Positions 1 to 8,506 of a stretch of DNA of 9,184 bases are shown here, one piece after another. How positions within the stretch are numbered: the first letter of the stretch is position 1; every line of letters begins with the position of its first letter. The translations under genes and the position numbers were made by a program. The stretch is from a virus (taxonomy: Duplodnaviria; Heunggongvirae; Uroviricota; Caudoviricetes): IMG/VR virus record IMGVR_UViG_2695420589_000017; one strand, 5' to 3'. Under the pieces are notes generated by a model. That model worked only from the letters and a program-made list of their open reading frames with translations. It did not search any database and had not been told where the DNA came from.

Positions 1-804
1 ATGCCGCTGGATAAATGCGAGCTACGCCACTGGCTGGCCTGTTTTGACCAGCTTGCTAAGCGTAATCCGGTATCAGCCGGCTTTTTGTTGCAGGTATGCA
101 AACAGGCGCTTAAGTACTGCCGTAAACGTCGCTACGCCGTCAGTAACGTTCTTGATGATATGGTCGTAGGTGATGTGGGAAAAAAAGCAGAAATAAGCGA
201 GCGAGTGCTAACAAACAAGGAGCTTGGCGAGCTACTCCGCGCACTGGATGAAAAAATTTTCCCGCCGTACTACAGCGCTTTAATTCGCCTTCTGATTGTC
301 TTCGGATGCCGTACCACTGAGCTAAGACGCTCCGAGGTTCGGGAATGGGATTTTAAAGAAATGCTCTGGACTGTGCCGAAAGAACACAGCAAAACGAAGG
401 TAGCAATATTCAGGCCAATACCGGAAGCGATCTTGCCGTTCGTCATGAAGCTGGTGGAGCAGAACAGGCACACGGGCTTATTGCTTGGAGAACTGAAAGG
501 GCAATCATCCGTAGCAGAGTACGGAAGAACGGCACACAGACGCATTAATCAAACCCCCTGGTCGTTGCACGACATCCGGCACACATTTACAACCATGCTG
601 AACGATTTAGGCGTGGATCCGCATATTGTCGAACAGCTTACTGCCCACCAGATGCCAGGAATGCAACGCGTCTATAACCACTCCCGTTATCTCGATGCAA
701 AGCGTGACGCTCTTAATCTATGGGTAGACCGTCTCGAGCTTCTCCAGAACAATGATGAAAAAATCGTTGTTATGACCCCGCGAATTTACCCCCAAAATTC
801 TTGA
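1..804 (+). CDS. int: Tyrosine recombinase / integrase, P4-like family, C-terminal 267 codons (5' end cut by window edge)
   Basis: Open frame from position 1 to TGA at 802-804. Translation carries tyrosine-recombinase catalytic-domain hallmarks (LHDIRHTFTTML = H-x-x-R box; RVYNHSRYLD = C-terminal Tyr region) and resembles P4-type integrases. Full-length members are about 400 aa or more, so the ATG at position 1 is most likely an internal Met. Confidence 0.85.
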   Translation: MPLDKCELRHWLACFDQLAKRNPVSAGFLLQVCKQALKYCRKRRYAVSNVLDDMVVGDVGKKAEISERVLTNKELGELLRALDEKIFPPYYSALIRLLIVFGCRTTELRRSEVREWDFKEMLWTVPKEHSKTKVAIFRPIPEAILPFVMKLVEQNRHTGLLLGELKGQSSVAEYGRTAHRRINQTPWSLHDIRHTFTTMLNDLGVDPHIVEQLTAHQMPGMQRVYNHSRYLDAKRDALNLWVDRLELLQNNDEKIVVMTPRIYPQNS

Positions 805-2804: not shown

Positions 2805-3104
2805 ATGAGAACGTATTTATCTGGCTTGACTGCCAGCGGTTATGCACACCCCCAAATTATCCCCGGCGCTATTTATCTGGATAAGAACGGTAACAGAGTA
2901 ACGGTAAAAGAACTGATGTTTGACCGTGTGTATTTTATCCGTGATGGCTATTCATTTCTTAGTTCGCTGAACGTGGAGATCTTTATTAGCAGATTCAGTC
3001 GGGAAATCCCGCTTTCCAGAAATAACCATGTGTCATGTATGGATGTTGATAAAAAACTACAGGAACTAAAAAACATGATTGCCGCGTGGAGAGAGCAGAA
3101 ATGA
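2805..3104 (+). CDS. Hypothetical protein, 99 aa, no recognisable motif
   Basis: ATG 2805 is 6 nt after the upstream stop; its own stop (3102-3104) overlaps the ATG of the helicase gene (ATGA), indicating translational coupling. Confidence 0.6.
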   Translation: MRTYLSGLTASGYAHPQIIPGAIYLDKNGNRVTVKELMFDRVYFIRDGYSFLSSLNVEIFISRFSREIPLSRNNHVSCMDVDKKLQELKNMIAAWREQK

Positions 3105-4891
3105 AAAAAGCGCCAAATTTAAAACACCAGCCGCGTGACAAAATGACGGAAGTCATCATTTTTGCGGGTAGTGATGCGTGGGCACATGCGAAACAGTGGC
3201 AGGAACAGGACGGGCGACTGGCTGGCGATAACGTGCCACCTGTCTGGCTTGGAGAGCAACAACTTGCCGAACTGGACAACCTGCAAATCGTACCGGACGG
3301 ACGCTATCGCGTGCGTCTCTATCAGGCGGGGTTATTGCGTCCGGGGCTTGTTAATACCATCGGGCAGAAACTGGCAGTGGCAGGTGTCAGGGATGCTGAT
3401 TATTACCCTGAAGGAATGCACAGCCAGAAACGGGAGAACTGGCGCGAATATCTGGAACGTGAACGGGCAGAGCAGGCGGAAAAGAAAAAGGTAGTTGAAC
3501 TGCCTGTAAAGAAAAAAGAGCGGGTAAAAGACGATAACGCTTCATCACTGGCGCTTAACCAGATGGGAGCAAGTCAACGCGGCGAAGTTCTCCTGGCACA
3601 TTATGGCGGTGAACTGGCGATTCATGCTGACTCTGACACTGTTCACCATTACAACGGCGTTGTATGGGAGCCAGTACAGGATAAAGAATTACAGCGAGCT
3701 ATGGCACAGATTTTCATTGATGCGGAGATCAGCTATTCGCAGAACGCCATTAAATCGGCGGTCGATACCATGAAGTTAAGTTTGCCTGTAATGGGGAATA
3801 CAGCCCGTAACCTGATTGGATTCAGTAACGGGGTATTTGATACCAGAACAGGTAATTTTCGGGAGCATAACAAAAACGACTGGTTGTTAATTGCCAGTGA
3901 ATTACCTTTCAGCCCACCAGCAGAGGGGGAAACGCTGGCAACACATGCGCCGAATTTCTGGAAGTGGTTACGCCGTTCGGTGGCTGAGAATGACCGCAAG
4001 GCGGATCGCGTACTGGCTGTATTATTCATGGTGCTGGCGAACCGGTACGACTGGCAGTTATTCATTGAGGTAACAGGTCCAGGGGGAAGTGGTAAAAGCG
4101 TGATGGCGGAGATTTGCACCATGCTGGCGGGTAAGGCCAACACAGTATCGGCAAGCATGAAGGCGCTGGAAGATGCAAGGGAACGCGCGTTAGTGGTTGG
4201 CTTTTCGCTGATTATCATGCCGGATATGACCCGCTACGCTGGTGATGGGGCAGGGATTAAGGCCATTACAGGCGGTGACAAGGTGGCAATTGACCCGAAA
4301 CACAAAGCCCCCTACTCAACGCGTATTCCGGCAGTAGTGCTGGCGGTTAACAATAACGCCATGTCATTCAGTGACCGCAGCGGGGGGATCTCACGTCGTC
4401 GGGTGATATTCAATTTTTCGGAAGTTGTACCGGAGAACGAACGCGACCCCATGCTGGCAGAAAAAATAGAAGGAGAGCTGGCGGTTGTGATTCGCCACCT
4501 GCTTACTCGTTTTTCTGACCAGGACGAAGCTAAACGCCTGCTGTATGAGCAGCAGAAATCAGAAGAAGCTCTGGTGATAAAACGCGAGGGCGATTCGCTG
4601 GTGGACTTCTGCGGCTATCTCATGTCGTCGGTAATGTGTGATGGTCTGTTAGTGGGTAATGCCGAAATTATTCCGTTCAGTCCGCGCAGGTATCTTTATC
4701 ACGCCTATCTGGCATATATGAGGGCACACGGATTCGGTAAACCTGTAACACTGACGCGCTTCGGTAAAGATATGCCGGGGGCAATGGCGGAATATGGCAG
4801 GGAGTATATGAAACGGAAAACGAAGCACGGTTTGCGTTCAAATGTGACCCTGACAGAGGATTCAGAAGACTGGATGCCATCATGTGCATAG
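3101..4891 (+). CDS. Replication protein: P4 alpha-like / D5-family SF3 helicase with origin-binding C-terminus (phage/plasmid primase P4-family C-terminal domain); N-terminal primase domain not evident
   Basis: 596-aa frame; ATG 3101 with GGAGAGAG 5 nt upstream. Walker A motif EVTGPGGSGKSV followed by a hydrophobic stretch ending in D (LIIMPDM). Overall size and layout match P4-family helicase-type replication proteins. Iterons lie immediately downstream. Confidence 0.85.
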   Translation: MKKAPNLKHQPRDKMTEVIIFAGSDAWAHAKQWQEQDGRLAGDNVPPVWLGEQQLAELDNLQIVPDGRYRVRLYQAGLLRPGLVNTIGQKLAVAGVRDADYYPEGMHSQKRENWREYLERERAEQAEKKKVVELPVKKKERVKDDNASSLALNQMGASQRGEVLLAHYGGELAIHADSDTVHHYNGVVWEPVQDKELQRAMAQIFIDAEISYSQNAIKSAVDTMKLSLPVMGNTARNLIGFSNGVFDTRTGNFREHNKNDWLLIASELPFSPPAEGETLATHAPNFWKWLRRSVAENDRKADRVLAVLFMVLANRYDWQLFIEVTGPGGSGKSVMAEICTMLAGKANTVSASMKALEDARERALVVGFSLIIMPDMTRYAGDGAGIKAITGGDKVAIDPKHKAPYSTRIPAVVLAVNNNAMSFSDRSGGISRRRVIFNFSEVVPENERDPMLAEKIEGELAVVIRHLLTRFSDQDEAKRLLYEQQKSEEALVIKREGDSLVDFCGYLMSSVMCDGLLVGNAEIIPFSPRRYLYHAYLAYMRAHGFGKPVTLTRFGKDMPGAMAEYGREYMKRKTKHGLRSNVTLTEDSEDWMPSCA

Positions 4892-4929
4892 GTCACAAAT
4901 GACGATGGAAAAAATTAAACTTATGGAAT

Positions 4930-5154
4930 AACTGTTCACCACTGTTCACCCTGCAATAAATGTCTTTTATATCAGTATATTATAGGGTGAACAGTTATTT
5001 ATGAACTGTTCACCAAACTATTCACTGTTCACCTTTTTGATTCTTTATTGAGCTTTAAGGGTGAACAGTGGTGAACAGTTGGTGAATAGTTTTTGTGAAA
5101 CTGTTAACCCATTAACATCATGAATAAAAAGGGAAAATTGCAAAAGGTGAACAG
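4930..5154. repeat. Iteron array / putative replication origin (ori or crr-like): at least 8 perfect copies of CTGTTCACC / GGTGAACAG in both orientations plus degenerate copies, with an AT-rich segment at 4956-4985
   Basis: Perfect 9-mers at 4932-4940, 4942-4950, 5006-5014, 5025-5033 (forward) and 4986-4994, 5060-5068, 5070-5078, 5146-5154 (reverse); degenerate copies at 5081-5089 and 5101-5109. The core contains TGTTCACC, which I recall as the type I iteron bound by P4 alpha protein. Confidence 0.75.
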
Positions 5155-5205
5155 GTGAAGGGTTAAAATGCAAAAATTTTATTTTATTGCTGTGAGGTAA
5201 AGCCT

Positions 5206-5451
5206 GTGACAACGAAGCACGCCAAAAAACCACAATCTCACGCCCTTGATTTGACAGAACACTGGCTGAGGGTGGCGATAAAAATCATCGACCGCAACGC
5301 CGGGGAAGGATACGCGAAAGCACATCCCGAACTGATAAGCGCATTCATGACCACGACGGCGGCAAACTTTGCCACGCTGACAGAACGGGAGATTGCCGAA
5401 GCGGAACAGGTGACAACCATCAACGTTAAAACCGGAGAGCAGACAGCATGA
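5206..5451 (+). CDS. Hypothetical protein, 81 aa (GTG start)
   Basis: GTG 5206 with GAGG at 5194-5197 (8-nt spacing). Stop overlaps the ATG of the downstream SSB-like gene (ATGA at 5448-5451). No recognisable motif. Confidence 0.5.
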   Translation: MTTKHAKKPQSHALDLTEHWLRVAIKIIDRNAGEGYAKAHPELISAFMTTTAANFATLTEREIAEAEQVTTINVKTGEQTA

Positions 5452-5870
5452 CAGCACAGATAGCGGCTTACGGGCGGCTGGTGGCTGACCCGCAGTTAAA
5501 GACCACCAGCAAGGGTACGCAAATGACGATGGCGAGTATGGCGGTTCCCCTGCCGTGCAGCCAGGCAGATGACGGAACGGCGACGATATGGTTATCCGTC
5601 CTGGCGTTTGGCAGACAGGCTGACGCACTGGCAAAGCACCAGAAAGGCGAGCTGGTGAGCGTGGCGGGTAACATGCAGGTAAGCCAGTGGACAGGCCAGA
5701 ACGGAGAAACGCGGCAGGGCTGGCAGGTTATCGCAGACAGTGTAATCAGTGCCAGAACGGCGCGACCGGGCGGTAAAAAAGGCCAACAGGGGCAGGCCAC
5801 TGATGCACTGAACAGGGCCAAACAACAGGCGGGGAATGATGATCCGTACGGGGATAACATACCGTTTTAA
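5448..5870 (+). CDS. ssb: Single-stranded DNA-binding protein (SSB)-like, 140 aa, with conserved acidic C-terminal tip ...DDPYGDNIPF
   Basis: N-terminal OB-fold region parallels E. coli SSB in layout (GRLVADPQLKTTSKG...; WLSVLAFGRQADALAKHQKGELVSVAGNMQVSQWTGQNGETRQGWQV), a Gly/Gln-rich linker, and a C-terminus ending in IPF like the SSB DDDIPF tip. GGAGAG RBS 10 nt upstream. Confidence 0.8.
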   Translation: MTAQIAAYGRLVADPQLKTTSKGTQMTMASMAVPLPCSQADDGTATIWLSVLAFGRQADALAKHQKGELVSVAGNMQVSQWTGQNGETRQGWQVIADSVISARTARPGGKKGQQGQATDALNRAKQQAGNDDPYGDNIPF

Positions 5871-6434: not shown

Positions 6435-6629
6435 ATGCCAGAGAACAACAGCAGAAAACCGGATAAAAGTGCAACAGTGCACATAGACGCCGGAACTATG
6501 GAGAAGCTCGAACGCTATCAGCAGTTCATTAAAAGTCATCACCCTGGAATGCCAGTACCCACGAAAGGGCAGATTGCGAGAAGCGCGGTTGAATACTGGT
6601 ACAGGGCAACGTTAGGAGCCTGGCTATGA
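6435..6629 (+). CDS. Hypothetical small protein, 64 aa, first gene of the head operon
   Basis: ATG 6435 with GGAGG at 6423-6427 (7-nt spacing); alternative in-frame ATGs at 6402 and 6405. Stop overlaps the ATG of the protease-capsid gene (ATGA). Product MPENNSRKPDKSATVHIDAGTMEKLERYQQFIKSHHPG...; function unknown. Confidence 0.5.
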   Translation: MPENNSRKPDKSATVHIDAGTMEKLERYQQFIKSHHPGMPVPTKGQIARSAVEYWYRATLGAWL

Positions 6630-8506
6630 AAACATGGTTTTCCATTAAGGCTATGGCTGATGTTGTACATGTACGCATTTATGACGAGATCGGCGGGTAC
6701 GGTGTAAAAGCATCGGCACTTACTGACGAGATCAACGCGTGCGGTAATGTGCCTGAAATCCATCTTCGCATCCATTCACCTGGTGGCGACATCTTTGAAG
6801 GGCTGGCTATCTATAACGCCCTGAAAAATCATCCGGCAAAGAAAATTGTACACATTGAAGGCATGGCGGCTTCTATGGCCTCGTTTATTGCCATGTGTGG
6901 CGATCACATCGTTATGCCTGAAAACGCGATGATGATGATACATGCCCCCCGTGGTGTTACTGCCGGAGTGTCGGGCGACGTTCGCCGCTTTGCTGACCTG
7001 ATGGACAAGCTGGGCGACACGATGGCGGAAACCTACGCCGGAAGAACGGGCAGGAGCAAACAGGAAATCACCGCCATGATGGAGGCGGAAACCTGGATGG
7101 ATGGCAATGAGTGTAAGGCTAATGGCTTCGCAGATGAGGTTATACCCGCGATTACAGCAATGGCCAGAATTGAATCAAAACGAATCGGAGATTTTTCGAA
7201 TATGCCGGAAAATATTAAAAGCATGATCAGCCAGAAAACTGGCAGCGGAGAACAGGAACGACTCAACGGGATACGTGAATTGTTTGGCACGTTCAATGGA
7301 AGATATAACGACCTGGCTATAAGTTGTCTTGCTGATTCAGGCTGTAGCGTTGAGGATGCACGCGAACGCCTTTTACTCACTATGGGTAAAGAATCGACAC
7401 CGACAAACAAAACCACCCCCGCAAATCTTTACTACGCGTACACGGATAACGGCAACATAACCGGCGATGCAATGCGTCAGGGGCTTAATGCGCGTCTGGG
7501 ACATGAACAGGCAGAACGCGGCAACCCTTACGCCATGATGAGCCTTTTCGATATGGCACAGGCATCATTAACCCATCGCGGCATAAGCACAGGCAGCTAC
7601 AGCACACGCTCGCAGATAGTAAACGCGGCATTCACCCACAGCAGCAGCGATTTTACTTATATCCTTGCTGGTGGTGCTGAAAAATCCGTGCTTGCCGGAT
7701 GGGAACACAGCGGCGAAACGTTCCGCCAGTGGACGAAAAAAGGTTCATTGTCAAACTTCCATGAGGCACGTCGTGTTGGCCTGAATGGCTTCTCTACATT
7801 AAACAAAGTGCCGGAAGGCGCGGAATATAAATACATCACCACCAGTGACCGTGGCGAACCAATCGCGCTGGCAACTTACGGAAATATTTTCAGCATTACC
7901 CGACAGGCGATTATTAACGATGACCTGAATCAGTTAACAGTTATCCCACAGGCAATGGGGCGAGCAGCCGCCAGAACGGTGGGTAATCTGGTTCATCTGG
8001 TGCTGACAGGAAACACAAAGCTTTCTGACGGTATACCGCTGTTCAGCAAAAAACACGGAAATGATATTGATAACGGAGTCAGCACTACAGGGCTTGGCAT
8101 TGCACGCCGTGCAATGCGCACACAGAGGGATGAAAACGGTGAGGTGCTGAATATTGTGCCAAAATTCCTTCTTGTTCCTGCGGCTCTGGAAGACAGAGCG
8201 TTGCAAATGGTTAACTCAACCACGCCTTTCGGTGCCGATACAAACAGTGGTTCATATAACCCGTACCACAAACAACTGGATATTATTGTCGATCCCCGCC
8301 TTGATGAAGTCAGTGATAAGCAATGGTACATGCTTTCAGCACAGGGAACGGACACAATTGAGGTGGCTTATCTTGACGGTAATGACGAGCCTTACCTTGA
8401 GCAGCAGGAGGGCTTTATTGTTGACGGTGTGGCCTGGAAGGTCCGCATTGATGCTGGCGTTGCTGCTCTGGATTATCGCGGAATGGTCAGAGCGATTTCT
8501 TCATGA
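6626..8506 (+). CDS. Prohead (ClpP-like, S14-type) protease fused to major capsid protein, 626 aa
   Basis: Single uninterrupted frame; AGGAG 7 nt upstream of ATG 6626. N-terminal ~190 aa carry ClpP-like protease signatures (IHSPGGDIFEGLAIYNAL; GMAASMASFIA serine context; MMMIHAP histidine context). The C-terminal ~350 aa are of major-capsid size; the capsid assignment rests on size, position and my recollection of protease/major capsid fusion proteins in enterobacterial prophages, not on alignment. Strong terminator follows. Confidence 0.8.
   Translation: MKTWFSIKAMADVVHVRIYDEIGGYGVKASALTDEINACGNVPEIHLRIHSPGGDIFEGLAIYNALKNHPAKKIVHIEGMAASMASFIAMCGDHIVMPENAMMMIHAPRGVTAGVSGDVRRFADLMDKLGDTMAETYAGRTGRSKQEITAMMEAETWMDGNECKANGFADEVIPAITAMARIESKRIGDFSNMPENIKSMISQKTGSGEQERLNGIRELFGTFNGRYNDLAISCLADSGCSVEDARERLLLTMGKESTPTNKTTPANLYYAYTDNGNITGDAMRQGLNARLGHEQAERGNPYAMMSLFDMAQASLTHRGISTGSYSTRSQIVNAAFTHSSSDFTYILAGGAEKSVLAGWEHSGETFRQWTKKGSLSNFHEARRVGLNGFSTLNKVPEGAEYKYITTSDRGEPIALATYGNIFSITRQAIINDDLNQLTVIPQAMGRAAARTVGNLVHLVLTGNTKLSDGIPLFSKKHGNDIDNGVSTTGLGIARRAMRTQRDENGEVLNIVPKFLLVPAALEDRALQMVNSTTPFGADTNSGSYNPYHKQLDIIVDPRLDEVSDKQWYMLSAQGTDTIEVAYLDGNDEPYLEQQEGFIVDGVAWKVRIDAGVAALDYRGMVRAISS

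What the first reader, a model, noticed from the sequence alone, without database searches (positions are those of the whole stretch)
4930..5154. Iteron origin with CTGTTCACC repeats immediately downstream of the helicase gene
At least eight perfect 9-mers in both orientations plus degenerate copies cluster within about 225 bp, flanking an AT-rich block (4956-4985) that could act as the unwinding element. The core TGTTCACC matches what I recall as the P4 type I iteron recognised by alpha, which ties the helicase to a cis-acting origin and supports autonomous replication of the element.
Basis: partly seen in the sequence, partly recalled or inferred. Interest (0 to 1): 0.55.

Follow-up and report, generated by a model that had tools for sequence, protein, structure and literature searches.

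The report
Satellite-island replication origin with P4-type iterons
The repeat cluster is very probably the replication origin of a roughly 10-kb phage-inducible chromosomal island of Shigella sonnei, bound by the helicase encoded just upstream; this kind of origin is already known, and the only fresh point is that it looks like two mirrored copies of the phage P4 origin.

Summary
There are eight perfect CTGTTCACC copies (four per strand) in 4932-5154, plus four degenerate copies, and 0 of 200 shuffles reach this count.

The window is a Shigella sonnei island of the EcCICFT073 type, a phage-inducible chromosomal island (PICI). Its gene order is int, alpA, pri-rep, ori, ssb, capsid.

The repeats begin 41 bp after the stop codon of an SF3 helicase. 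That helicase is 50% identical to P4 alpha over the helicase and origin-binding domain (PDB 1KA8, E=2e-24). It lacks alpha's primase domain.

TGTTCACC is exactly the type 1 repeat annotated in P4 ori and crr. The cluster consists of two mirrored modules. Each is colinear with P4 ori1: two iterons, a 35-bp AT-rich spacer, one inverted iteron, then three iterons.

Across seven species the iteron columns are conserved far better than the spacers. In other lineages the iteron word changes together with a short stretch of the origin-binding domain that I read as its beta-hairpin wing.

For the homologous EcCICFT073 island, rep plus ori was shown experimentally to drive plasmid replication (Fillol-Salom 2018).

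The origin is a new member of a known kind. It was not tested experimentally here.

The parts
3101..4891 (+). pri-rep gene: SF3 (D5/P4-alpha-type) initiator-helicase of 596 aa from ATG 3101. The longest ORF starts at GTG 3086.
   Evidence: Pfam finds D5_N, DUF5906 and Pox_D5. Residues 150-600 are 50% identical to P4 alpha 320-771, with no counterpart of alpha 1-319. It is 48% identical over its full length to EcCICFT073 Pri-Rep. The 596-aa product is WP_052941910.1 of Shigella sonnei. ATG 3101 is preceded by GGAGAG.
4586..4888 (+). Origin-binding domain (winged helix) of the helicase. The predicted beta-hairpin wing KRKT-KH-GLRS is encoded at about 4811-4840.
   Evidence: phmmer against PDB 1KA8, 'Phage P4 Origin-Binding Domain': E=2.3e-24 over residues 502-598. 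The AF2 model built with an alignment is low-confidence overall (pLDDT 53) but reaches 70-75 around strands 576-579 and 582-585. The wing is the segment that differs between iteron classes.
4932..5033 (+). Module A, a half-origin colinear with the reverse complement of P4 ori1. Iterons: I1 4932-4940(+), I2 4942-4950(+), I3 4986-4994(-), I4 5006-5014(+), I5 5018-5026(+, degenerate CTATTCACT), I6 5025-5033(+).
   Evidence: Iteron offsets are 0/10/53/74/(86)/93, against 0/10/53/75/86/96 in P4 ori1. blastn matches 4929-5042 at 74.8% identity to the ori1 region of a P4-like element in E. coli PKF8.
4951..4985 (.). S1: 35-bp AT-rich spacer, the best candidate for the DNA unwinding element.
   Evidence: GC is 0.23, and the least stable 20-mer of 4801-5300 lies at 4965-4984. 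It has the same length as the 35-bp spacer between the annotated type 1 repeats of P4 ori at 9361-9395 (GC 0.17). The equivalent spacer in EcCICFT073 is also AT-rich (GC 0.23), whereas S3 there has GC 0.57.
5034..5059 (.). S2: central 26-bp AT-rich spacer and dyad centre (about 5046) of the whole origin. It is the alternative melting site under the SaPI/PICI model.
   Evidence: GC is 0.23. Six iteron positions point towards it from each side. The stretch 4925-5170 folds as one long imperfect hairpin, with ssDNA dG -46.4 kcal/mol and z = -7.4.
5060..5163 (-). Module B, a mirrored and more degenerate half-origin. Iterons: I7 5060-5068(-), I8 5070-5078(-), I9 5081-5089(-, GGTGAATAG), I10 5101-5109(+, CTGTTAACC), I11 5146-5154(-), I12 5155-5163(-, GTGAAGGGT).
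   Evidence: It spans 104 bp, the same as the six type 1 repeats of P4 ori (9310-9413). I10 is a perfect CTGTTCACC in E. coli relatives.
5110..5145 (.). S3: 36-bp spacer of module B, the counterpart of S1.
   Evidence: GC is 0.25 here, but 0.57 in EcCICFT073, so its AT-richness is not conserved. Its sequence is related to the reverse complement of S1 (alignment A1).
5206..5451 (+). Conserved 81-aa gene of unknown function directly after the origin.
   Evidence: phrog_1231, E=5e-49. It is present in the same position in E. coli PICIs.
5448..5870 (+). Island-encoded single-stranded DNA-binding protein, a likely accessory replication factor.
   Evidence: Pfam SSB, E=4e-16. It is conserved next to the origin in all E. 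coli PICIs inspected.

Best explanation
The cluster is the replication origin of a roughly 10-kb phage-inducible chromosomal island (PICI, EcCICFT073 type) of Shigella sonnei. It is recognised by the initiator-helicase Pri-Rep encoded immediately upstream.

Proposed mechanism, with the basis for each step:

1. After helper-phage induction, rightward transcription produces Pri-Rep. This is inferred from EcCICFT073.
2. The C-terminal winged-helix origin-binding domain of Pri-Rep is homologous to that of P4 alpha. It binds twelve CTGTTCACC-type iterons. Homology and covariation are shown; binding is inferred.
3. The iterons form two mirror-image modules. Each has the P4 ori1 layout: two tandem sites, a 35/36-bp spacer, one inverted site, then three tandem sites at spacings of about 7-12 bp (10-11 bp in module B and in P4 ori1). 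This arrangement would let two SF3 hexamers self-load in opposite orientations. The layout is shown; loading is inferred from P4 and SaPI work.
4. Melting starts in the AT-rich spacer 4951-4985, the stability minimum, or possibly in the central spacer 5034-5059. The island's own SSB, encoded just downstream, then coats the strands. This step is inferred.
5. The protein has no recognisable primase domain. Priming is therefore probably done by host DnaG or by the uncharacterised 150-aa N-terminal domain. This step is open.
For: - Statistics: eight perfect and four degenerate iterons; 0 of 200 shuffles reach the count.
- Identity with P4: the word is identical to the annotated P4 type 1 repeats.
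- Initiator: the helicase's C-terminal domain matches the P4 origin-binding domain 1KA8 at E=2.3e-24, with about 47-48% identity. The helicase core is 63% identical to alpha.
- Layout: both modules align almost without gaps to P4 ori1.
- DNA-level homology: blastn detects module A in the ori1 region of a P4-like element.
- Phylogenetic footprint: in 8 sequences from 7 species, 70% of iteron columns are invariant against 33% of spacer columns (Fisher p=7e-9).
- Covariation: every locus with a KR[KH]TK.G[IL][RQ][ST]N-type wing has at least 5 TGTTCACC-type sites downstream. Loci with other wings carry other words in the same place: CTGTCTACC, CTGTCCGC, CTCTCTACC, CTGTGCACC.
- Natural swap: E. ruysiae L006 has a 97%-identical helicase core but a different wing and a different iteron. 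DNA identity drops from about 4660 onward, through the origin.
- Experiment on a homologue: EcCICFT073 (48% identical Pri-Rep, same 2-1-3|3-1-2 layout with a different word). Its rep-ori supports plasmid replication, while delta-ori and delta-rep do not (PMC6092414).
- No competing site: there is no other iteron cluster in the whole island.
- No host-initiator signals: the origin holds no DnaA box, IHF consensus, GATC site, terminator or Rfam family.
Against: - There is no experiment on this allele. Binding, melting and the initiation site are all inferred.
- The mapping of iteron word to wing is not one-to-one. EcCICFT073 and E. ruysiae L006 share CTGTCTACC with quite different wings. Rahnella L042 has TGTTCAC-type iterons with yet another wing.
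- The wing assignment rests on a low-confidence model (pLDDT 53).
- This particular copy has one iteron mutated (I10, CTGTTAACC), and the island's integrase has a nonsense mutation. The origin may therefore be sitting in a decaying element.
- No primase domain is recognisable.
- Some relatives (E. ruysiae L006, Kluyvera L010) arrange their iterons differently.
Confidence: 0.85

Rival explanations
1. The cluster is a crr-like cis-acting accessory or copy-control site. It would be bound by the helicase for enhancement, looping or handcuffing, as P4 crr is, but replication would actually begin elsewhere.
For: In P4, the type 1 repeat cluster that lies immediately downstream of alpha is crr, not ori. 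Module B is degenerate and could be auxiliary.
Against: The layout matches ori1, not crr. crr reads < > > > < < in two direct 120-bp repeats. The entire island holds no other iteron cluster. In EcCICFT073 the rep gene plus this intergenic region suffices for replication.
Confidence: 0.06
2. The repeats are mainly transcriptional operators for the downstream ssb and packaging genes. They would be bound by Pri-Rep or by another island regulator such as AlpA or PerC.
For: The region is the only sizeable intergenic gap between pri-rep and the downstream operon. Winged-helix proteins are often regulators. No terminator separates the genes.
Against: No sigma-70-like promoter is found on the + strand. 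The sites are identical to those of a known origin. The sites covary with the helicase's own DNA-binding domain. Twelve sites spread over 230 bp with AT-rich spacers is an origin architecture.
Confidence: 0.04
3. It is a genuine origin by descent but no longer functional in this genome. On this reading it is a relic in a decaying, immobilised island.
For: The integrase has a nonsense mutation in this genome (L082:6817 G>T, against the intact copy in L081). Iteron I10 carries a C>A change relative to E. coli relatives. From my memory of Tocchetti et al. 1999 (J Virol 73:7308; the paper is not held), loss of single type I iterons inactivates P4 ori1.
Against: Eight perfect iterons remain, and the helicase ORF is intact. 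Exactly the same protein occurs on several S. sonnei contigs, within a 90%-identity cluster of 3078 members. Module A is unmutated.
Confidence: 0.15

Closest known systems
Replication origins of Gram-negative PICIs, prototype EcCICFT073 pri-rep-ori (Fillol-Salom et al. 2018, ISME J, PMC6092414)
   Same: The gene order is the same: int, alpA, icd-like, DUF4222, pri-rep, ori, small ORF, ssb, (perC), capsid. The origin lies immediately 3' of pri-rep, with sets of iterons flanking AT-rich DNA. The 2-1-3|3-1-2 iteron layout is identical. Pri-Rep is 48% identical overall and 64% identical in the N-terminal domain.
   Different: The iteron word is CTGTTCACC here and CTGTCTACC in CFT073. The origin-binding domains are only 32% identical. 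Spacer S3 is AT-rich here and GC-rich in CFT073. This allele has not been tested functionally.
Phage P4 ori (ori1) with type I iterons bound by the alpha primase-helicase
   Same: The iteron is identical: TGTTCACC, extended to CTGTTCACC in most P4 ori copies. The six-iteron layout and offsets are the same, with a 35-bp AT-rich spacer. The origin-binding domain is homologous (1KA8), as is the SF3 helicase core.
   Different: The module is present twice, in mirror image, and sits directly downstream of the helicase gene. In P4 it lies 2.3 kb upstream of alpha. There is no separate crr. The helicase lacks alpha residues 1-319, the primase domain. There is no Cnr homologue. The rest of the element is PICI-like, not P4-like.
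Phage P4 crr (cis replication region)
   Same: Position: a cluster of type 1 repeats immediately downstream of the helicase gene. It is bound by the same kind of domain.
   Different: crr is two direct 120-bp repeats 180 bp apart, each with the layout < > > > < <. The window has two inverted ori1-type modules.
SaPI origins and self-loading Rep helicases (Staphylococcus aureus pathogenicity islands; Qiao et al. 2022, PMC9371898)
   Same: There are 6-12 iterons immediately downstream of rep, with half on each side of AT-rich DNA and pointing in opposite directions. The initiator is the helicase itself, acting through a C-terminal winged-helix domain. The helicase core is distantly homologous to SaPI5 PriRep (7OLA, E=1.6e-10).
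   Different: SaPI iterons are penta- or hexanucleotides of unrelated sequence. Protein similarity is limited to the ATPase core. The hosts are Gram-positive.

Membership tests
Gram-negative PICI pri-rep/ori replicon (EcCICFT073 type) | The origin lies immediately 3' of the replication-initiator gene. | tested here: met
   The first iteron is at 4932, 41 bp after the stop codon at 4889-4891.
Gram-negative PICI pri-rep/ori replicon (EcCICFT073 type) | Two sets of iterons flank AT-rich DNA. | tested here: met
   There are six iteron positions on each side of the dyad. The spacers have GC 0.23-0.25.
Gram-negative PICI pri-rep/ori replicon (EcCICFT073 type) | The initiator is homologous to a PICI Pri-Rep, and the island has PICI gene order with unidirectional transcription. 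| tested here: met
   The initiator is 48% identical over its full length to EcCICFT073 Pri-Rep. The gene order matches that of L077.
Gram-negative PICI pri-rep/ori replicon (EcCICFT073 type) | rep plus ori suffices for plasmid replication, and the island is induced by a helper phage. | not testable with these tools
   This has been shown only for EcCICFT073 (PMC6092414).
P4 ori1 / alpha replicon | Type I iteron TGTTCACC. | tested here: met
   One search compared.
P4 ori1 / alpha replicon | Six iterons at near-helical spacing plus a 35-bp AT-rich region. | tested here: met
   Module A offsets are 0/10/53/74/86/93, against 0/10/53/75/86/96 in P4. The spacer is 35 bp in both. That this unit is the minimal ori1 is my recollection of Tocchetti 1999, which I could not read.
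P4 ori1 / alpha replicon | The initiator carries an alpha-type C-terminal origin-binding domain. | tested here: met
   1KA8, E=2.3e-24. It is the only PDB fold hit.
P4 ori1 / alpha replicon | The initiator carries the N-terminal DnaG-type primase domain of alpha. | tested here: not met
   Nothing aligns to alpha 1-319. No primase family is found in Pfam, NCBIfam or PHROGs for residues 1-160.
P4 ori1 / alpha replicon | Bipartite origin, with a distant crr required in cis. | tested here: not met
   The roughly 10-kb island has a single cluster. The P4-like Erwinia locus L016 does show separated clusters.
P4 ori1 / alpha replicon | P4 gene content (cnr, sid, delta, psu). | tested here: not met
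   The 106-aa ORF at 2478-2798 has no similarity to Cnr. No sid, delta or psu families are detected.
P4 crr | Two direct 120-bp repeats, each with five type 1 repeats. | tested here: not met
   The modules are inverted, and their internal layout differs from that of crr.
SaPI ori | 6-12 iterons downstream of rep, in opposite orientation around AT-rich DNA, bound by the Rep winged-helix domain. | tested here: met
   The architecture is met (description in PMC9371898). Sequence-level membership is not implied.

The most novel reading that the evidence does not exclude
This PICI allele and the P4-like satellites of the same hosts share the same iteron word, a homologous origin-binding wing and the same half-origin module. 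Their initiators may therefore cross-recognise each other's origins. P4 alpha could fire or titrate the PICI origin, and PICI Pri-Rep could bind P4 ori and crr. That would couple two satellite families thought to be independent, through cross-activation or incompatibility.

A related point is that the PICI origin would descend from a duplicated P4-type ori1. This is contrary to the published view that its organisation is shared with no other replicon.
Probability: 0.2. Interest if true: 0.55.

Novelty: new member of a known kind. Interest (0 to 1): 0.3.

Why it matters
The result fixes the cis-acting replication site of an island type whose origin sequence is present in 669 of 5426 complete E. 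coli genomes and in Shigella sonnei.

It also offers a natural specificity series: the same helicase core, with different wing and iteron pairs. That series could be used to dissect how SF3 self-loading helicases read their origins.

It qualifies a published statement that PICI origins resemble no other replicon. Each half of this origin is a P4 ori1-type module.

For this allele the iteron is identical to P4's. That makes cross-talk between P4-like satellites and PICIs directly testable. In itself, the origin is an ordinary example of a described class.

Tried and rejected
- Cnr-like copy control. The 106-aa ORF at 2478-2798 has the same length as P4 Cnr but shows no similarity to it and gives no Pfam hit.
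- Host-factor sites. There are no DnaA boxes, IHF consensus sites or GATC sites inside 4892-5205.
- ncRNA. Rfam gives only far-sub-threshold plant miRNA hairpin hits, caused by the palindrome.
- Promoter or terminator in the gap. No terminator was found, and no + strand promoter.
- Primase identity of the N-terminal 150 aa. Nothing was found in Pfam or NCBIfam. PHROGs gives only a family of unknown function.
- Structure of the origin-binding domain. The single-sequence AF2 model was useless (pLDDT 38). The model built with a 48-sequence alignment was still weak (pLDDT 53). Foldseek returned only 1KA8.
- Internal iteron-like pair in the helicase gene (3608-3647). It is not conserved outside E. 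coli and Shigella, so I treat it as chance.
- Exact-protein look-up from GTG 3086 failed. It succeeded from ATG 3101.
- Literature. A full-text search for TGTTCACC returned only unrelated primer hits. Tocchetti 1999 is not held. The iteron sequences of Fig. 2a in PMC6092414 appear in neither the text nor the supplements. I therefore could not tell whether this exact allele was drawn there.

Full report
**Observation**

The repeats are present as described. CTGTTCACC occurs perfectly eight times within 4932-5154, four times on each strand. One-mismatch copies lie at 5081(-) and 5101(+). The whole window has 14 matches at one mismatch or fewer, against 1.8 expected, and none of 200 dinucleotide-preserving shuffles reaches that number.

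Two further degenerate positions, 5018-5026(+) and 5155-5163(-), are revealed by alignment with relatives. That gives twelve iteron positions in all.

The least stable 20-mer of the whole 4801-5300 stretch starts at 4965.

**Context**

The window is identical to bases 6901-16084 of a Shigella sonnei contig (GCA_001258955.1). It covers almost all of a roughly 10-kb island inserted between cspD/yljB and clpS.

The gene order is:
- integrase
- AlpA-family regulator
- Icd-like protein
- DUF4222 protein
- a D5/P4-type helicase (3101-4891)
- the repeat cluster
- an 81-aa ORF
- SSB
- a ClpP-protease/major-capsid fusion
- two small ORFs

This is the organisation of the Gram-negative phage-inducible chromosomal islands (PICIs). 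The prototype EcCICFT073, which I located at L077 2931-13655, has the same order. Its Pri-Rep is 48% identical over its full length.

The origin sequence itself is found in 669 of 5426 complete E. coli genomes, mostly at 90-95% identity.

**The initiator**

Residues 150-600 of the helicase are 50% identical to P4 alpha residues 320-771, which cover the SF3 helicase and the C-terminal origin-binding domain.

The last 100 residues match the crystal structure of the P4 origin-binding domain (1KA8) with E=2.3e-24. That entry is also the only significant fold match.

Nothing corresponds to alpha residues 1-319, the DnaG-type primase domain (its description is in PMC2777425). Instead there is a 150-residue N-terminal domain shared with EcCICFT073 (64% identity). 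It has no family assignment. The 'DNA primase' label on these proteins comes from a model of the helicase part (TIGR01613).

**Relation to P4**

The GenBank record of P4 annotates TGTTCACC as the 'ori type 1 repeat', in both ori (9310-9413) and crr (4291-4590).

The resemblance goes beyond the word itself. Window 4925-5040, and the reverse complement of 5052-5170, both align almost without gaps to the reverse complement of P4 ori.

Each unit reads as follows: two tandem iterons 10 bp apart, a 35/36-bp spacer, one inverted iteron, then three tandem iterons. The tandem spacings are 10-11 bp in module B and in P4 ori1. In module A the degenerate I5 overlaps I6, giving spacings of 12 and 7 bp.

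Offsets from the first iteron are:

| Origin | Offsets (bp) |
|---|---|
| P4 ori1 | 0/10/53/75/86/96 |
| Window module A | 0/10/53/74/(86)/93 |

Module B spans 104 bp, exactly like the six P4 repeats.

blastn independently matched 4929-5042 to the ori1 region of a P4-like element in E. coli PKF8, at 74.8% identity and E=3e-7.

The origin is therefore two ori1-type half-origins in mirror image around about 5046. This is why the whole 246 nt folds into one long imperfect hairpin (z = -7.4). It also explains the spurious sub-threshold miRNA hits in Rfam.

P4 crr occupies the equivalent position downstream of alpha, but it has a different internal layout and consists of direct repeats. The island contains no second cluster.

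**Comparative evidence that the helicase reads these sites**

Seventy-two related loci were retrieved from Enterobacterales and Pasteurellaceae.

Footprint:
- I aligned ten sequences carrying the same iteron word, from E. coli/Shigella, Raoultella, Kluyvera, Pluralibacter, Citrobacter and Klebsiella.
- In a non-redundant subset of eight, 70% of iteron columns are invariant against 33% of spacer columns (Fisher p=7e-9).
- The invariant core is TTCACC/GGTGAA.

Covariation:
- Other lineages carry a cluster in the same place but with another word.

| Lineage | Iteron word |
|---|---|
| E. ruysiae, Kluyvera georgiana, Enterobacter, EcCICFT073 | CTGTCTACC |
| Serratia | CTGTCCGC |
| Symbiopectobacterium | CTCTCTACC |
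| Proteus | CTGTGCACC |

- EcCICFT073 and the Symbiopectobacterium locus keep the same 2-1-3|3-1-2 layout with their own words.
- The word tracks a short segment of the origin-binding domain. All loci with a KR[KH]TK.G[IL][RQ][ST]N segment, P4 included, have at least five TGTTCACC-type sites.
- Loci with a five-residue insertion there, or with YSYN/YYYN, carry other words.

Natural swap:
- E. ruysiae L006 is 97% identical to the window in the ATPase core.
- Its presumed recognition helix is nearly identical to the window's.
- It differs in this segment and uses CTGTCTACC.
- DNA identity falls from 90-97% to 63-75% from about 4660 onward, through the origin. This suggests that the domain and the origin are exchanged as one cassette.

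Limits of this evidence:
- A low-confidence AF2 model places a beta hairpin (the wing) on exactly this segment, residues 576-585. I treat the wing as the likely specificity determinant, but only tentatively.
- The mapping is not one-to-one. CFT073 and L006 share a word with different wings.

**Mechanism**

For EcCICFT073, Fillol-Salom et al. showed that rep plus the adjacent origin maintains a temperature-sensitive plasmid at the restrictive temperature. The rep and ori mutants do not. [quoted passage not shown]

For SaPIs, Rep is a self-loading helicase. Its C-terminal winged helix binds 6-12 iterons downstream of rep, with two hexamers probably loaded on either side of AT-rich DNA (PMC9371898).

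By homology, I propose the following sequence:
1. Pri-Rep binds the twelve iterons.
2. It assembles two oppositely oriented hexamers on the mirrored modules.
3. It melts the 4951-4985 spacer. This spacer is conserved as AT-rich in CFT073 and P4, whereas the module B spacer is GC-rich in CFT073. The central spacer is the alternative site.
4. It is assisted by the island's SSB.

Priming is unresolved. The origin holds no DnaA box, IHF consensus, GATC site, terminator or + strand promoter. This is consistent with a self-contained initiator-helicase origin that is transcribed through from pri-rep.

**Rivals**

- A crr-like accessory role is unlikely. The layout is that of ori1, there is no other cluster, and rep-ori suffices in CFT073.
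- A purely transcriptional operator role does not explain the identity with a known origin. Nor does it explain the covariation with the helicase's own DNA-binding domain.
- A functional caveat remains. In this genome the integrase has a nonsense mutation, and iteron I10 is mutated relative to E. coli relatives. This copy may therefore be decaying.

**Novelty and score**

The kind of origin is known and has been tested in a homologue. This is a further allele of it.

The modest new points are these:
- Each half of the origin is a P4 ori1-type module.
- This allele shares P4's iteron and wing.
- The origin-binding domain and the origin appear to move together.

The 2018 paper states that the origin organisation is shared by no other known replicon and that Pri-Rep is only distantly related to alpha. 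The present comparison qualifies both statements.

Whether P4 alpha and this Pri-Rep cross-react is open and testable.

Interest is 0.3.

Noticed in passing
window 1-804; L082:6466-7704: The window's first ORF is only the C-terminal 267 aa of the island integrase. In this Shigella sonnei genome a G>T change at L082:6817, just upstream of the window, creates a stop codon. The otherwise identical island in L081 has an intact 412-aa integrase. The island here is probably unable to excise.
   Followed up: yes
window 3608-3616 (-) and 3639-3647 (+): An inverted pair of iteron-like words (CAGTTCACC and a perfect CTGTTCACC, 31 bp start to start) lies inside the helicase gene. It is retained in E. coli relatives, but no perfect TGTTCACC occurs in the helicase genes of six other species. 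It is probably chance.
   Followed up: partly
window 5101-5109: Iteron I10 reads CTGTTAACC in this genome, but is a perfect CTGTTCACC in the three E. coli relatives aligned. This is a point mutation in one origin site.
   Followed up: partly
window 4925-5170: The entire origin is a 246-nt imperfect palindrome (ssDNA dG -46.4 kcal/mol, z = -7.4). The palindrome produces spurious, far-sub-threshold plant miRNA-precursor hits in Rfam.
   Followed up: yes
L076 2088-3086 and 13427-14557 (E. coli 2013C-3342): An island of the same type, with a 98.8%-identical origin, is inserted inside the terminase large-subunit gene of a prophage and splits that gene in two. This is a satellite integrated into a potential helper's packaging gene.
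   Followed up: no
window 6626-8506: The island carries its own ClpP-like prohead protease/major capsid fusion gene. It is of the same kind as the prophage gene at L076 16258-18237. No portal or large terminase is present in the roughly 10-kb island. It may serve capsid remodelling or interference.
   Followed up: no
window 3086-3565: The first 150 residues or so of the so-called 'DNA primase' match no primase family (only phrog_2850, of unknown function). They replace the DnaG-type primase domain of P4 alpha. The domain is 64% identical in EcCICFT073. Who primes at this origin is unknown.
   Followed up: partly
window 3101-3104: The likely helicase start, ATG 3101 (preceded by GGAGAG), overlaps the stop of the upstream DUF4222 gene (2805-3104). 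This suggests translational coupling.
   Followed up: no
L041 7497-7800 (Proteus mirabilis); L016 (Erwinia rhapontici): Proteus relatives have only one ori1-type module (word CTGTGCACC) downstream of the helicase gene. The Erwinia P4-like locus has TGTTCACC clusters about 3 kb upstream and about 2 kb downstream of the helicase gene, resembling P4's ori/crr split.
   Followed up: partly
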